Shown: positions 9,001 to 15,000 of the stretch, one piece after another
Layout: every line of letters starts with the position of its first letter
Position numbering within the stretch: position 1 is the first letter of the stretch
Origin: Escherichia coli O157:H7
GTDB lineage: Bacteria > Pseudomonadota > Gammaproteobacteria > Enterobacterales > Enterobacteriaceae
DNA: 64,000 nt
Strand: one strand, 5' to 3'
NCBI RefSeq assembly: GCF_013167455.1
Contig: NZ_CP038328.1
Position numbers: made by a program

Positions 9001-12000
9001 GACGCGCCGCCGGTTTTCCGCTCATCTGCTCATCCTTGTTTTATCGGGTTATTTGTCTGCTTCCAGGCAAAACCCTACAGATTTATAAGAAAGCCTTAAG
9101 TGAGATATCCATCAGATAGAAACAATTAGGAAAATATTTATATCACCATGATAAATATGTGATTTATTTGGAAGTAACAAACCATCAACATTTTCTGCCC
9201 TTTTTCCCATCACCAGGCCATACTGATATTTTTCCTCGCACAAAGGACTCGGCATGAAACTCGTCGGTAGCTACACCAGCCCGTTTGTACGCAAACTTTC
9301 TATTCTGTTGTTAGAAAAGGGCATAACTTTCGAATTTATTAATGAACTGCCCTATAACGCGGACAACGGCGTGACGCAATTTAACCCGTTAGGAAAAGTG
9401 CCGGTGCTGGTGACCGAAGAGGGCGAATGCTGGTTTGATTCGCCGATCATCGCTGAATATATTGAATTAATGAATGTCGCTCCGGCGATGTTGCCGCGCG
9501 ATCCGCTGGAGTCGTTGCGGGTGCGCAAAATTGAGGCACTGGCGGATGGCATTATGGATGCCGGGCTGGTATCGGTGCGTGAACAGGCGCGTCCAGCGGC
9601 GCAGCAGTCTGAAGATGAATTGTTACGCCAGCGGGAGAAAATCAACCGCAGTCTGGATGTGCTGGAAGGATATCTGGTCGATGGCACACTCAAAACCGAT
9701 ACGGTCAATCTGGCGACTATCGCCATTGCCTGTGCCGTCGGATATCTCAATTTCCGCCGCGTTGCGCCAGGTTGGTGTGTCGACCGCCCACACTTAGTCA
9801 AACTGGTCGAAAACCTGTTTAGCCGCGAAAGTTTTGCTCGCACCGAACCGCCAAAGGCTTGATGCGCGATATGTCCTCCTGACCCATCTCACGTTACAAT
9901 CCGTGGTTATGTTAAACGCCCTTCTCCGTGTGAGAGGGCCTTGATCAGCCAGGTTTCCTATGACAACCGAAACGCGTTCCCTCTATAGTCAACTTCCGGC
10001 TATTGATCGCTTATTGCGCGATAGCTCCTTCCTTTCTTTGCGTGATACTTATGGTCACACCCGCGTGGTGGAATTGTTGCGTCAGATGCTCGACGAAGCG
10101 CGAGAAGTGATTCGTGGCAGCCAGACGCTGCCTGCGTGGTGTGAAAACTGGGCGCAAGAAGTCGATGCCCGGTTGACGAAAGAAGCGCAGAGCGCGCTGC
10201 GTCCGGTGATCAACCTGACGGGAACCGTGCTGCATACCAACCTTGGGCGAGCTTTACAGGCGGAAGCCGCGGTGGAAGCCGTTGCGCAGGCTATGCGTTC
10301 GCCAGTGACCCTCGAGTACGATCTGGACGACGCCGGACGCGGACATCGCGATCGGGCGCTGGCGCAGCTGCTGTGCCGTATTACGGGGGCGGAAGATGCC
10401 TGTATCGTCAATAACAATGCGGCGGCGGTGTTATTGATGTTGGCGGCCACTGCCAGCGGAAAAGAGGTGGTGGTATCTCGCGGCGAACTGGTGGAGATTG
10501 GCGGCGCGTTTCGTATTCCCGATGTTATGCGTCAGGCAGGCTGCACCCTACACGAAGTAGGGACCACCAACCGCACGCACGCGAATGATTATCGTCAGGC
10601 GGTGAATGAAAATACCGCACTGTTGATGAAAGTACATACCAGTAACTACAGCATTCAGGGGTTCACCAAAGCGATAGATGAAGCGGAACTGGTGGCGCTC
10701 GGCAAAGAGCTGGATGTTCCCGTAGTGACTGATTTAGGCAGTGGCTCGCTGGTCGATCTTAGCCAGTACGGTTTGCCGAAAGAGCCAATGCCGCAGGAGT
10801 TGATTGCGGCGGGCGTCAGTCTGGTGAGCTTCTCCGGCGACAAGTTGTTAGGCGGGCCGCAGGCAGGGATTATCGTTGGTAAAAAAGAGATGATCGCCCG
10901 CCTGCAAAGCCACCCGCTGAAGCGTGCATTACGCGCGGATAAAATGACCCTCGCGGCGCTGGAAGCCACGTTGCGTCTTTATTTACACCCTGAAGCTCTG
11001 AGTGAAAAATTACCGACCCTGCGCCTGCTTACCCGCAGCGCAGAGGTCATTCAAATCCAGGCACAACGTTTACAGGCTCCCCTTGCCGCACATTACGGCG
11101 CGGAGTTTGCGGTACAGGTTATGCCATGTCTTTCGCAGATTGGCAGTGGTTCGCTGCCGGTTGATCGCCTGCCGAGCGCGGCATTAACGTTTACACCCCA
11201 TGATGGACGCGGTAGCCACCTTGAGTCATTAGCCGCCCGCTGGCGTGAATTGCCAGTGCCGGTGATTGGTCGTATTTATGACGGACGATTGTGGCTGGAT
11301 TTACGCTGCCTTGAAGATGAGCAACGGTTTTTGGAGATGTTGTTGAAATGATTATTGCGACTGCCGGACACGTTGACCACGGCAAAACAACCTTATTGCA
11401 GGCGATTACTGGCGTAAATGCTGACCGTCTGCCGGAAGAAAAAAAGCGCGGCATGACCATCGATCTCGGCTATGCCTACTGGCCGCAGCCGGATGGTCGC
11501 GTGCCTGGTTTTATCGACGTACCCGGTCATGAAAAGTTTCTTTCCAACATGCTGGCGGGCGTTGGTGGTATCGATCACGCGCTGTTGGTGGTGGCGTGCG
11601 ATGACGGCGTGATGGCACAGACCCGTGAGCATCTGGCGATTTTGCAGCTGACCGGTAACCCGATGCTGACAGTGGCGCTGACCAAAGCCGATCGCGTAGA
11701 CGAAGCGCGTGTTGATGAGGTTGAACGCCAGGTAAAGGAGGTTCTGCGGGAATACGGTTTTGCTGAGGCAAAACTGTTTATCACCGCAGCAACCGAAGGT
11801 CGGGGAATTGATGCCCTGCGCGAGCATCTGCTTCAGTTGCCGGAACGCGAGCACGCCAGCCAACATAGTTTCCGCCTCGCGATTGACCGCGCATTTACCG
11901 TAAAAGGTGCCGGGCTGGTCGTCACCGGTACGGCGTTAAGCGGGGAAGTGAAGGTAGGCGATTCACTCTGGCTGACTGGTGTAAATAAACCGATGCGTGT

Positions 12001-15000
12001 ACGTGCGCTGCATGCGCAAAACCAGCCAACAGAAACCGCCAATGCCGGGCAGCGTATCGCGCTTAACATCGCGGGTGATGCGGAAAAAGAGCAGATTAAC
12101 CGTGGCGACTGGCTGCTTGCCGATGTGCCGCCAGAGCCGTTCACACGGGTGATTGTCGAGCTTCAAACCCATACACCGCTGACCCAGTGGCAGCCGCTGC
12201 ATATTCACCACGCCGCCAGCCACGTCACGGGACGCGTTTCACTGCTGGAAGATAACCTTGCTGAACTGGTCTTCGACCCCCCGTTATGGCTGGCAGATAA
12301 CGACCGCCTGGTATTGCGCGATATCTCTGCCCGCAACACGCTGGCCGGAGCGCGCGTCGTGATGCTTAACCCGCCGCGTCGCGGTAAACGTAAACCAGAG
12401 TATCTGCAATGCCTGGCTTCCCTCGCCAGGGCACAGAATGATAGCGAAGCGTTAGCCGTTCACCTGCAACGCGGCGCGGTTAATCTTCCTGATTTCGCCT
12501 GGGCGCGCCAGCTCAACGGCGAAGGGATGCGCGAACTGCTGCAACAGCCTGGCTATATTCAGGCTGGTTATAGCTTGTTGAATGCGCCGGTTGCCGCTCG
12601 CTGGCAACGGAAAATTCTCGACACATTAGCGACTTATCATGAGCAACATCGCGATGAACCTGGGCCTGGGCGCGAACGTCTGCGACGTATGGCGTTGCCA
12701 ATGGAAGATGAAGCGCTAGTACTGTTGCTGATTGAAAAGATGCGCGAAAGCGGCGACATCCTCAGTCATCACGGCTGGCTGCATCTGCCGGATCACAAAG
12801 CGGGCTTCAGCGAAGAGCAGCAGGCCATCTGGCAAAAAGCAGAGCCGCTGTTTGGTGACGAGCCGTGGTGGGTGCGTGATCTGGCAAAAGAGACGGGTAC
12901 CGACGAGCAGGCAATGCGCCTGACGCTACGCCAGGCGGCGCAGCAAGGAATAATTACCGCGATCGTCAAAGATCGTTATTACCGTAACGATCGGATTGTC
13001 GAATTTGCCAATATGATCCGCGATCTCGATCAGGAGTGTGGTTCAACCTGCGCGGCGGATTTCCGCGATCGCTTAGGCGTAGGCCGAAAGCTGGCAATTC
13101 AGATTCTGGAATATTTTGACCGCATTGGCTTTACGCGTCGTCGTGGAAATGATCATTTATTGCGCGACGCATTATTATTTCCGGAAAAATAAGGAAATGA
13201 TTAATTAATTTTTAAAATAAATTAATACAAATTTCTTATGATTTTAAAAAAGCACATTGTTTAATGAATACAATGTGCTTTTTATTAGATTAATTTTGAT
13301 AATTAATAATAATGATCATGTTTTCGAATGAAAATCCTCAGTAAGCTGCCCACCCTTTTTTACACTTTCAGGAGTGTGTTATGGCATCTTCAACTTTCTT
13401 TATTCCTTCTGTGAATGTCATCGGCGCTGATTCATTGACTGATGCAATGAATATGATGGCAGATTATGGATTTACCCGTACCTTAATTGTCACTGACAGT
13501 ATGTTAACGAAATTAGGTATGGCGGGCGATGTGCAAAAAGCACTGGAAGAACGCAATATTTTTAGCGTTATTTATGATGGCACCCAACCTAACCCCACCA
13601 CGGAAAACGTCGCCGCAGGTTTGAAATTACTTAAAGAGAATAATTGCGATAGCGTGATCTCCTTAGGCGGTGGTTCTCCACACGACTGCGCAAAAGGTAT
13701 TGCGCTGGTGGCAGCCAATGGCGGCGATATTCGCGATTACGAAGGCGTTGACCGCTCTGCAAAACCGCAGCTGCCGATGATCGCCATCAATACCACGGCG
13801 GGTACGGCCTCTGAAATGACCCGTTTCTGCATCATCACTGACGAAGCGCGTCATATCAAAATGGCGATTGTTGATAAACATGTCACTCCGCTGCTTTCTG
13901 TCAATGACTCCTCTCTGATGATTGGTATGCCGAAGTCACTGACCGCCGCAACGGGTATGGATGCCTTAACGCACGCTATCGAAGCGTATGTTTCTATTGC
14001 CGCCACGCCGATCACTGACGCTTGTGCACTGAAAGCCGTGACCATGATTGCCGAAAACCTGCCGTTAGCCGTTGAAGATGGCAGTAATGCGAAAGCGCGT
14101 GAAGCAATGGCTTATGCCCAGTTCCTCGCCGGTATGGCGTTCAATAATGCTTCTCTGGGTTATGTTCATGCGATGGCGCACCAGCTGGGCGGTTTCTACA
14201 ACCTGCCACACGGTGTATGTAACGCCGTTCTGCTGCCGCATGTTCAGGTATTCAACAGCAAAGTCGCCGCTGCACGTCTGCGTGACTGTGCCGCTGCAAT
14301 GGGCGTGAACGTGACAGGTAAAAACGACGCGGAAGGTGCTGAAGCCTGCATTAACGCCATCCGTGAACTGGCGAAGAAAGTGGATATCCCGGCAGGCCTA
14401 CGCGACCTGAACGTGAAAGAAGAAGATTTCGCGGTTCTGGCGGCTAATGCCCTGAAAGATGCCTGTGGCTTTACTAACCCGATCCAGGCAACTCACGAAG
14501 AAATTGTGGCGATTTATCGCGCAGCGATGTAATCATCATTTCCACAACGGCTGGCAAATTGTCAGCCATTTTTTCAACTATCTCAAAACTTGCTTTTTTT
14601 GAGATAGTTTCTCTTTCCTGCTATACACTATCTCAATATTGCGCTTTTTTGAGATAAGCAAATGGCTATCAAATCACCTCCCACGCTGATTCCTTTATCA
14701 CACTTATCGGGTGAGGAACTCCAGGCCCACCTGCGCTTTAACCGGGTTACCGATGAAAAAGGACGTTATCTGCCTTTTGATGAGTTGCAGTACCGCATCA
14801 AAAAAGGAGAAAACGTCGATGTGGCGTGGACGCTTACCCGTCTGGCGCGCAACGCGGCGATCCAACGAATTAATTATTGCAATGAAGCGGGTGAACAGGC
14901 CGGATTCAACATTACCCCGGTGATTGCAGAAGCGTGCGAGCTTGTCGACAAACGTGCTACCGCGCTGGCGCTGAAAGATCAGACTGAACGGTTACGCGGG

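What the first reader, a model, noticed from the sequence alone, without database searches (positions are those of the whole stretch)
9960..13192. selA and selB are translationally coupled through an ATGA overlap
The selB start codon overlaps the selA stop by 4 nt (11348-11351), indicating coupled translation of the selenocysteine synthase and the Sec-specific elongation factor. Autoregulation of this operon by a SECIS-like leader structure has been reported, but I did not map such a structure here.
Basis: partly seen in the sequence, partly recalled or inferred. Interest (0 to 1): 0.15.

Follow-up and report, generated by a model that had tools for sequence, protein, structure and literature searches.

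The report
E. coli selAB operon, already known
This is the well-studied E. coli selA-selB operon for making and delivering selenocysteine: the 4-base ATGA stop/start overlap is real, and the published SECIS-like hairpin lies in the leader at 9918-9939, so the finding is correct but ordinary.

Summary
selA (9960-11351) ends in TGA at 11349-11351, and selB (11348-13192) starts at ATG 11348, so the two genes share ATGA. Both match their NCBIfam equivalog models far above cut-off. The stretch is 100% identical to E. coli O157 chromosomes, and its leader is identical to K-12 MG1655.

The overlap (ATGA or GTGA) is kept in 73 of 79 Enterobacterales loci. A GGAG Shine-Dalgarno-like motif lies 11 nt before the selB start. 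Coupled translation is therefore the likely reading, but it remains an inference from sequence.

The leader holds a hairpin at 9918-9939 (GCCCUUCUC-CGUGU-GAGAGGGC) that extends to 9905-9950 and abuts the selA SD. It has the geometry shared by the E. coli fdhF, fdnG and fdoG SECIS elements: a bulged U, 4 bp, then a loop N-G-U-N(N). It has no UGA at the matching position and no Rfam SECIS hit, so it is SECIS-like and not a SECIS. This matches the operator reported by Thanbichler & Böck (2002).

A small addition: a hairpin at this position occurs in about 37 related species, but only some keep the loop GU, and no covariation supports the fold.

Novelty: already known. Interest: low.

The parts
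9895..9900 (+). Putative -10 hexamer TACAAT of the selAB promoter. The -35 is weak (TGTCCT, 17-nt spacer). The inferred transcription start is about 9905-9908.
   Evidence: Read from the sequence. TACAAT is conserved at the same place in Citrobacter, Salmonella, Kluyvera, Enterobacter and Kosakonia leaders. The consensus scan missed it because of the poor -35. The start site was not mapped: a search of published TSS supplements for selA found nothing.
9905..9950 (+). Extended leader hairpin (the full SECIS-like element). Its base abuts the selA Shine-Dalgarno sequence.
   Evidence: MFE -14.6 kcal/mol, z = -1.88, 10 of 200 shuffles fold as well. A preprint citing Thanbichler & Böck places the element 3 nt from the SD.
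9918..9939 (+). Core SECIS-like stem-loop GCCCUUCUC-CGUGU-GAGAGGGC. It has a bulged U (9922 or 9923), a 4-bp upper stem and the loop 9927-9931. G9928 and U9929 are equivalent to G23 and U24 of the fdhF SECIS.
   Evidence: -11.4 kcal/mol, z = -3.07, 3 of 200 shuffles. It matches the descriptor that also matches the fdhF, fdnG and fdoG SECIS elements. It is identical in K-12. The 96-nt leader is >=99% identical in 5169 of 5425 E. coli genomes.
9951..9954 (+). Shine-Dalgarno sequence of selA (AGGU), 5 nt before the ATG.
   Evidence: Read from the sequence. CCAGG is conserved in most related leaders.
9960..11351 (+). selA, L-seryl-tRNA(Sec) selenium transferase (selenocysteine synthase), 463 aa.
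   Evidence: TIGR00474 631.8 bits. Annotated as selA in identical E. coli records.
11333..11336 (+). SD-like GGAG inside the 3' end of selA, 11 nt before the selB ATG.
   Evidence: Duplex with the anti-SD is -6.4 kcal/mol. A value <= -6 kcal/mol is seen in 81% of 72 overlapping loci, against 8.7% of same-phase windows inside selA. The comparison is partly confounded by conservation of the SelA C-terminal peptide.
11348..11351 (+). ATGA: the selB start codon ATG (11348-11350) overlapping the selA stop codon TGA (11349-11351).
   Evidence: Conserved in 73 of 79 loci.
11348..13192 (+). selB, selenocysteine-specific elongation factor, 614 aa.
   Evidence: TIGR00475 910.8 bits, full length. Annotated as selB.
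13246..13286 (+). Intrinsic terminator of the operon: A-run, stem GCACAUUGU/ACAAUGUGC with a 9-nt loop, then UUUUUAUU.
   Evidence: Sequence. The fold of 13190-13300 is -25.3 kcal/mol, z = -4.73, 0 of 200 shuffles. The scan missed it because the loop exceeds 8 nt.

Best explanation
The region is the chromosomal selAB operon of E. coli. One mRNA probably starts near 9906, downstream of a weak promoter with -10 TACAAT, and ends at the terminator at 13246-13286. It encodes selenocysteine synthase SelA and the Sec-specific elongation factor SelB.

The selB start codon overlaps the selA stop codon (ATGA), and a GGAG lies 11 nt upstream. Ribosomes terminating on selA most likely re-initiate on selB, or are recruited locally, so SelB output follows SelA translation. 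This step is inferred.

The 5' leader folds into a hairpin (core 9918-9939, extended 9905-9950) that mimics the apical part of a SECIS element: a bulged U, 4 bp, and a loop carrying G-U. According to the literature, SelB-GTP-Sec-tRNA(Sec) binds this element and lowers translation initiation at the adjacent selA ribosome-binding site. The hairpin and its geometry are shown here. Binding and repression are taken from the literature. Through coupling, that repression would also reach selB, giving feedback control of SelB by its own charged complex. This last step is inferred.
For: - **Gene identity and synteny:**
- **Overlap:**, conserved in 73 of 79 Enterobacterales loci.
- **SD-like motif before selB:** enriched, 81% versus 8.7% background.
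- **Literature on coupling:** -4 spacing is the typical coupling architecture, and 13 of 14 tested overlapping pairs, including 5 E. coli pairs among the 14, were strictly coupled (PMC12548453; PMC6728339).
- **Leader hairpin:** stable and identical to K-12.
- **SECIS geometry:** the hairpin matches a descriptor built from the fdhF, fdnG and fdoG SECIS elements. That descriptor has 18 hits in the 128 kb of both strands of the window, so a hit in a 97-nt leader has about a 1.4% chance. Only 3 hits have a lower stem as long as this one.
- **Population conservation:** the leader is the most conserved 96-nt piece tested across E. coli genomes. It is >=99% identical in 95% of genomes, against 36% for a selA-internal piece, 52% for yibF and 85% for the junction.
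- **Related genera:** the same hairpin type with a CGUCG loop occurs in the leaders of Klebsiella, Raoultella, Enterobacter, Lelliottia, Leclercia, Trabulsiella and Phytobacter.
- **Published function:** a SECIS-like element in the selAB 5' UTR, 3 nt from the SD, bound by SelB-GTP-Sec-tRNA(Sec) and repressing selAB (Thanbichler & Böck 2002, as summarised in bioRxiv 10.64898/2026.03.03.709296, and cited in PMC8124441).
Against: - Coupling was not measured. selB has its own SD-like motif, so de novo initiation is possible.
- The junction shows no unusual secondary structure that would make selB depend on unfolding by selA ribosomes (z = +0.26).
- The whole leader folds no better than shuffles (z = 0.04). 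Only the local hairpin stands out.
- There is no covariation support. In 13 distinct related hairpins the 5' arm is invariant and no pair changes on both sides. Because the arms are pyrimidine and purine runs, slid registers still pair at 60-82%.
- Loops in Citrobacter (ACGGU/GCGGU), Salmonella diarizonae (AGCCA) and Kosakonia (GAC) lack the G-U determinant although the stem is kept.
- The original experimental papers could not be read here.
Confidence: 0.85

Rival explanations
1. The ATGA overlap is only compact gene packing. selB is translated by ribosomes that bind de novo at its own GGAG (11333-11336), independently of selA translation.
For: An SD-like motif is conserved upstream of selB and persists where the SelA C-terminal peptide differs (Yersinia CAGGGAG, Hafnia ACAGGAG, Edwardsiella CCAGGAG). 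No occluding structure is seen at the junction. Xenorhabdus and Photorhabdus function with a 34-51 nt spacer. The review notes that -4 spacing may be abundant simply because it evolves easily.
Against: The 11-nt SD-to-start spacing is longer than optimal. The overlap is kept in 73 of 79 loci. In experimental tests, 13 of 14 overlapping pairs were strictly coupled, and the SD contribution varied (PMC6728339).
Confidence: 0.2
2. The conserved leader hairpin mainly serves a role that does not involve SelB, and the SECIS resemblance in E. coli is secondary. One candidate role is a 5'-terminal stem-loop that stabilises a weakly expressed mRNA. Another is a generic CCCUCUCC/GGGAGAGGG intergenic hairpin.
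For: The stem is kept but loop G-U is absent in Citrobacter, Salmonella diarizonae and Kosakonia. The 5' arm CCCUCUCC is invariant in 13 distinct sequences, which suggests a sequence constraint rather than a pairing constraint. A near-identical hairpin occurs in an unrelated intergenic region of Serratia oryzae (L050 1066-1092). The inferred transcription start lies at the base of the extended hairpin (inference).
Against: In E. coli the hairpin meets all three geometric SelB determinants shared by fdhF, fdnG and fdoG. The commonest loop in other genera, CGUCG, carries the same G-U-C as genuine SECIS loops. SelB binding and repression are reported in the literature. The two roles are not mutually exclusive.
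Confidence: 0.15
3. selB is expressed from an internal promoter inside selA, so the two genes are not obligatorily co-expressed.
For: One promoter-like match lies inside selA (TTTACA-17-AAAAAT at 10982-11010).
Against: Promoter-like matches in the region are at chance level (5 found, 3.4 expected from shuffles). The genes overlap with no intergenic space, and the arrangement is annotated and described in the literature as the selAB operon.
Confidence: 0.03

Closest known systems
selAB operon of E. coli K-12 (b3591-b3590) with its SECIS-like 5'-UTR operator (Thanbichler & Böck, EMBO J 2002)
   Same: Same genes, same order, same flanking genes yibF and yiaY, same ATGA overlap. The 100 nt upstream of selA are identical base for base.
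   Different: Nothing in the operon itself differs. The window is an O157-type chromosome that carries an extra Fic-family gene downstream of yiaY, which K-12 lacks.
Genuine bacterial SECIS elements of fdhF (Rfam SECIS_2, RF01988) and fdnG/fdoG (SECIS_3, RF01989)
   Same: Apical geometry: a bulged U six nucleotides 5' of the loop G, a 4-bp upper stem, and G-U at loop positions 2-3.
   Different: It lies in a non-coding leader. It has no UGA 11 nt upstream of the minimal helix (the equivalent triplet 9906-9908 is GUU). The loop is CGUGU rather than GGUC or AGUCU. No Rfam SECIS hit appears even in a 96-nt search, while the controls score 84-87 bits. It acts as a repressor site, not a recoding signal (literature).
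Translational autoregulation by molecular mimicry, for example the thrS operator that mimics tRNA(Thr)
   Same: The logic is the same. A leader structure next to the ribosome-binding site imitates the natural RNA ligand of the encoded factor, so excess factor blocks initiation. The comparison is drawn in the preprint read.
   Different: The ligand here is a quaternary SelB-GTP-Sec-tRNA(Sec) complex. The signal therefore reports charged tRNA(Sec), and so selenium supply, and not free protein alone (literature, not tested here).
Overlapping -4 nt (NTGA) gene pairs that are coupled by termination-reinitiation, for example the E. coli pairs tested by Huber et al. 2019
   Same: Start and stop codons share TG, and an SD-like motif lies in the 3' end of the upstream gene.
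   Different: Coupling of this particular pair was not tested here, and I found no open-access report of a direct test.

Membership tests
selAB operon (SelA + SelB) | The upstream ORF matches the SelA equivalog model above its cut-off | tested here: met
   TIGR00474 631.8 bits against a cut-off of 267.9, covering residues 10-460
selAB operon (SelA + SelB) | The downstream ORF matches the SelB equivalog model above its cut-off over its full length | tested here: met
   TIGR00475 910.8 bits against a cut-off of 242.25, residues 1-607 on profile positions 1-581
selAB operon (SelA + SelB) | Same strand, adjacent, same neighbours as the annotated E. coli locus | tested here: met
   yibF-selA-selB-yiaY in identical O157 records and in K-12
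Translationally coupled -4 nt overlapping gene pair | [quoted passage not shown] | tested here: met
   ATGA at 11348-11351, conserved in 73 of 79 loci
Translationally coupled -4 nt overlapping gene pair | Translation of the downstream gene depends on translation of the upstream gene | not testable with these tools
   This needs reporter fusions with nonsense mutations in selA. Only indirect support exists.
Translationally coupled -4 nt overlapping gene pair | An SD motif in the 3' end of the upstream gene (common but not obligatory) | tested here: met
   GGAG at 11333-11336, -6.4 kcal/mol, enriched 81% versus 8.7%
Bacterial SECIS element (Rfam SECIS_2 / SECIS_3) | Covariance-model score at or above the gathering threshold | tested here: not met
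   No SECIS hit at E <= 10 in 4.3 kb or in the 96-nt leader. The controls fdhF (87.1 bits) and fdnG/fdoG (84.3 bits) are found.
Bacterial SECIS element (Rfam SECIS_2 / SECIS_3) | An in-frame UGA immediately 5' of the hairpin, 11 nt before the minimal helix, inside a coding sequence | tested here: not met
   The hairpin lies in the non-coding leader, and the equivalent triplet 9906-9908 is GUU
Bacterial SECIS element (Rfam SECIS_2 / SECIS_3) | Apical SelB determinants: loop G-U and a bulged U at -6, with a 4-bp upper stem | tested here: met
   A descriptor built from fdhF, fdnG and fdoG matches 9918-9939
SECIS-like operator of the selAB leader (Thanbichler & Böck 2002) | A stem-loop in the selAB 5' UTR within a few nucleotides of the selA SD | tested here: met
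   Extended hairpin 9905-9950, SD at 9951-9954, location as described
SECIS-like operator of the selAB leader (Thanbichler & Böck 2002) | Sequence identity with E. coli K-12, the species in which the element was reported | tested here: met
   The 100 nt upstream of selA are identical to MG1655
SECIS-like operator of the selAB leader (Thanbichler & Böck 2002) | Binds SelB-GTP-Sec-tRNA(Sec) and represses translation of the downstream gene | not testable with these tools
   Taken from secondary citations. The primary paper is not held.

The most novel reading that the evidence does not exclude
The leader hairpin is older and more widespread than its SECIS mimicry. A CCCUCUCC...GGRGRGGG stem is kept upstream of selA in about 37 Enterobacteriaceae species. 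The SelB determinants (loop G-U, bulged or wobble U at -6) are present only in some lineages (Escherichia, Klebsiella/Raoultella, Enterobacter, Leclercia and others). They are absent in Citrobacter, Salmonella diarizonae and Kosakonia. The hairpin may therefore have a second, SelB-independent function, such as a 5' stabiliser or another binding partner. Alternatively, SelB feedback has been gained or lost repeatedly.
Probability: 0.2. Interest if true: 0.3.

Novelty: already known. Interest (0 to 1): 0.08.

Why it matters
The finding matters little as a discovery. The operon structure and the leader operator of E. coli selAB are textbook-level facts for the selenoprotein field. The useful outcome is practical. 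The SECIS-like element is now placed at exact window coordinates (core 9918-9939, extended 9905-9950). It is shown to be SECIS-like by geometry but not a SECIS by any family model. Its distribution among relatives gives a cheap way to ask whether SelB autoregulation is general in Enterobacteriaceae or confined to some genera.

Tried and rejected
- **Rfam scans.** Scans of 9200-13500 and of the 96-nt leader gave no SECIS or other credible family, only chance-level miRNA and sRNA matches. The negative is informative because fdhF, fdnG and fdoG were found as positive controls.
- **Whole-leader folding.** The fold of 9863-9990 is no better than shuffles (z = 0.04). Only the local hairpin is significant.
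- **Covariation.** A covariance model (R1) built from 13 related hairpins finds the selA leader in 23 loci at E < 4e-4, but not the E. coli version. The pair count on the seed alignment shows zero compensatory changes. An attempt to align the E. coli-type and Klebsiella-type hairpins structurally failed, because MAFFT places the CU-rich arms one base out of register. I therefore make no covariation claim.
- **Junction structure.** A structure that could enforce coupling was looked for and none stood out (z = +0.26).
- **Internal promoter or terminator.** Scan hits are at chance level.
- **Yibf terminator.** The leader hairpin as a yibF terminator was rejected because no U-run follows it.
- **Primary papers.** Thanbichler & Böck 2002 and Sawers et al. 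1991 are not held. A second literature search for descriptions of the element found nothing.
- **Transcription start.** A published site for selA was sought in the Kim et al. 2012 supplements and was absent.
- **AT-rich 3' region.** A BLAST of 13195-13290 gave no match because of low-complexity filtering.

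
Full report
**What is there.** The window is an E. coli chromosome segment. The 4.2 kb around the finding are 100% identical to several O157 genomes and are present in 5425 of 5426 complete E. coli genomes. The annotation there is always yibF-selA-selB-yiaY (full context). The ORF at 9960-11351 (463 aa) matches the SelA equivalog TIGR00474 at 631.8 bits. The ORF at 11348-13192 (614 aa) matches the SelB equivalog TIGR00475 at 910.8 bits over its whole length.

**The observation.** The sequence reads ...TTG TTG AAA TGA in the selA frame, with ATG at 11348-11350 in the selB frame. The four bases 11348-11351 (ATGA) are therefore shared. ATG 11348 is the first start codon after an in-frame TGA at 11318-11320. 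It gives [14 protein letters not shown], which contains the P-loop, so the start assignment is safe.

**Is the overlap meaningful?** A single NTGA overlap is the commonest spacing of co-oriented prokaryotic genes and may be frequent simply because it evolves easily (PMC12548453).
- I fetched 80 selA loci from Enterobacterales and one Aquitalea. Of these, 79 junctions could be scored.
- 73 of the 79 have the same overlap (69 ATGA, 4 GTGA). SelA identity in this set falls to about 62%.
- Five Xenorhabdus/Photorhabdus loci have a 34-51 nt spacer, and in Aquitalea selB lies 1.4 kb away.
- A GGAG at 11333-11336 pairs with the anti-SD at -6.4 kcal/mol. Motifs of <= -6 kcal/mol occur in 81% of 72 overlapping loci, against 8.7% of same-phase windows inside selA. 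SD-like motifs persist where the SelA C-terminal peptide differs (Yersinia, Hafnia, Edwardsiella), although peptide conservation partly confounds the figure.
- The junction has no unusual secondary structure (z = +0.26). The "unfolding" type of coupling is therefore not supported.
- In published tests, 13 of 14 overlapping pairs (9 Haloferax and 5 E. coli pairs) were strictly coupled (PMC6728339).

Termination-reinitiation helped by the SD is the most likely mechanism. Coupling of selA and selB is likely but remains an inference.

**The leader.**
- The whole leader folds no better than shuffles (z = 0.04). A local hairpin stands out: GCCCUUCUC-CGUGU-GAGAGGGC at 9918-9939 (-11.4 kcal/mol, z = -3.07). 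It extends to a 46-nt stem-loop at 9905-9950 (-14.6 kcal/mol, z = -1.88).
- The base of the extended stem abuts the selA SD, AGGU at 9951-9954.
- A conserved TACAAT at 9895-9900 suggests a transcription start near 9906, so the hairpin would form the 5' end of the mRNA. This is an inference, and a published start site was not found.

**Comparison with genuine SECIS elements.**
- I retrieved the fdhF, fdnG and fdoG SECIS elements from K-12. They share a bulged U, then 4 bp, then a loop N-G-U-N(N) (fdhF GGUC, fdnG/fdoG AGUCU).
- A descriptor with just these features hits all three and also the leader hairpin. There U9922 is equivalent to U17, and G9928 and U9929 to G23 and U24.
- The descriptor has 18 hits in both strands of the 64-kb window, so a chance hit in a 97-nt leader has a probability of about 1.4%. 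Only 3 hits have a lower stem of 4 bp or more.
- The element is not a SECIS. It is non-coding, the triplet at the UGA-equivalent position (9906-9908) is GUU, and Rfam SECIS_2 and SECIS_3 give no hit even in a 96-nt search. Those same models score 84-87 bits on the genuine elements.
- The 100 nt upstream of selA are identical to K-12 MG1655. E. coli is the species in which a SECIS-like element 3 nt from the SD was reported to bind SelB-GTP-Sec-tRNA(Sec) and to repress selAB (Thanbichler & Böck 2002, summarised in the preprint read and cited). The primary paper is not held.

**Conservation.**
- Within E. coli the 96-nt leader is >=99% identical in 5169 of 5425 genomes. The figures for other 96-nt pieces are 4612 for the junction, 2820 for a piece of yibF and 1960 for a piece inside selA. 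A non-coding stretch that is more conserved than coding sequence points to purifying selection.
- Across genera, a hairpin at the same distance from the ATG (16-27 nt) occurs in about 37 of 78 leaders. A covariance model built from 13 of them finds the selA leader in 23 loci at E < 4e-4. Apart from reverse-strand echoes of those same hairpins, its only other hit below E = 0.01 is one generic hairpin in Serratia oryzae.
- The SECIS descriptor matches 14 of these leaders: Escherichia, Klebsiella/Raoultella, Enterobacter, Lelliottia, Leclercia, Trabulsiella and Phytobacter. Most have the loop CGUCG, which carries the same G-U-C as genuine SECIS loops.
- Citrobacter (ACGGU/GCGGU), Salmonella diarizonae (AGCCA) and Kosakonia (GAC) do not match.
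- There is no covariation support. The 5' arm CCCUCUCC is invariant, no pair changes on both sides, and slid registers still pair at 60-82% because the arms are pyrimidine and purine runs. The E. coli arm aligns one base out of register with the others.
- The hairpin is thus supported by thermodynamics, sequence conservation and position, not by compensatory change.

**Mechanism.**
- Shown here: the gene identities, the overlap, the SD-like motif, the hairpin with SECIS-like apical geometry next to the selA SD, and the operon terminator at 13246-13286.
- From the literature: SelB complex binding and repression.
- Inferred: because selB initiation is tied to selA termination, repression at the selA ribosome-binding site also lowers SelB. 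This would give feedback control of SelB by its own charged complex.

**Rivals.**
- selB could be initiated independently at its own SD (confidence about 0.2).
- The hairpin could mainly serve a SelB-independent role such as 5' stabilisation (about 0.15, and not exclusive of the operator role).
- An internal promoter could drive selB (about 0.03; promoter-like hits are at chance level).

**Verdict.** The finding is correct and its interpretation is supported, but all of it is established knowledge for E. coli selAB. Novelty is "already known" and interest is low. The only mildly new point is the patchy distribution of the SelB determinants on a more widely conserved leader hairpin.

Noticed in passing
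window 14662-15957 (+): A 431-aa Fic family protein gene lies between yiaY and aldB in this O157-type chromosome. In K-12 MG1655, yiaY and aldB are separated by only 164 nt, so this is a strain-specific insertion of about 1.4 kb.
   Followed up: partly
window 3178-9025 (-): An RHS element lies here. It comprises a 1409-aa RHS core protein (4796-9025), a sel1-repeat gene (yibG), an orphan RHS C-terminal fragment with an internal stop, and a frameshifted Imm57-family immunity gene. This is a typical toxin/immunity cassette graveyard directly upstream of yibF.
   Followed up: no
window 13246-13286 (+): A strong A-run/stem/U-run hairpin lies just after selB (fold of 13190-13300 has z = -4.73). It looks like a bidirectional intrinsic terminator. 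The consensus scan missed it because its loop is 9 nt. The surrounding 190-nt selB-yiaY spacer is extremely AT-rich.
   Followed up: partly
window 45585-46446; 26800-26842; 63394-63645: Rfam gathering-level hits lie elsewhere in the window: the cspA thermoregulator (46019-46446, -), the sok antitoxin RNA of a hok/sok locus (45585-45736, +), the ES036 sRNA (26800-26842, +), naRNA4 (63564-63645, -) and tRNA-Pro(CGG) (63394-63470, +).
   Followed up: no
L025, L031, L032, L034, L040, L044, L046, L047, L049, about 30-75 nt upstream of selA: In Shimwellia, Cedecea, Buttiauxella and relatives the leader hairpin is absent. Instead, an inverted repeat ACAGGGG...CCCCTGT lies between a -35-like TGACAG and a -10-like TAAACT/TACACT. 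It could be a DNA-level operator within the promoter spacer, which would be a different control design for the same operon.
   Followed up: no
L053, L066, L070, L072, L080 (selA-selB junction): Xenorhabdus and Photorhabdus have lost the ATGA overlap. selA ends in TAA or TAG, and a 34-51 nt spacer containing short direct repeats (for example TTGCTGTTATAGAAA twice in L066) precedes selB.
   Followed up: no
L050 1008-1092: Serratia oryzae has hairpins CTCTCTCCCCGAAAGAGAGGGA and CCCTCTCCCTGTGGGAGAGGG in an unrelated intergenic region about 1.4 kb upstream of selA. The second scores 27.6 bits with the leader-hairpin model. This shows that the CU-arm/GA-arm hairpin type is also a generic intergenic motif in enterics.
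   Followed up: partly
L085 3794-4030 (-): The K-12 fdoG 5' UTR gave a sub-threshold match (36.4 bits against a gathering score of 50) to the Rfam FdoG-1 5' UTR thermometer family. It lies outside the window and is noted only as context for regulation of selenoprotein genes.
   Followed up: no
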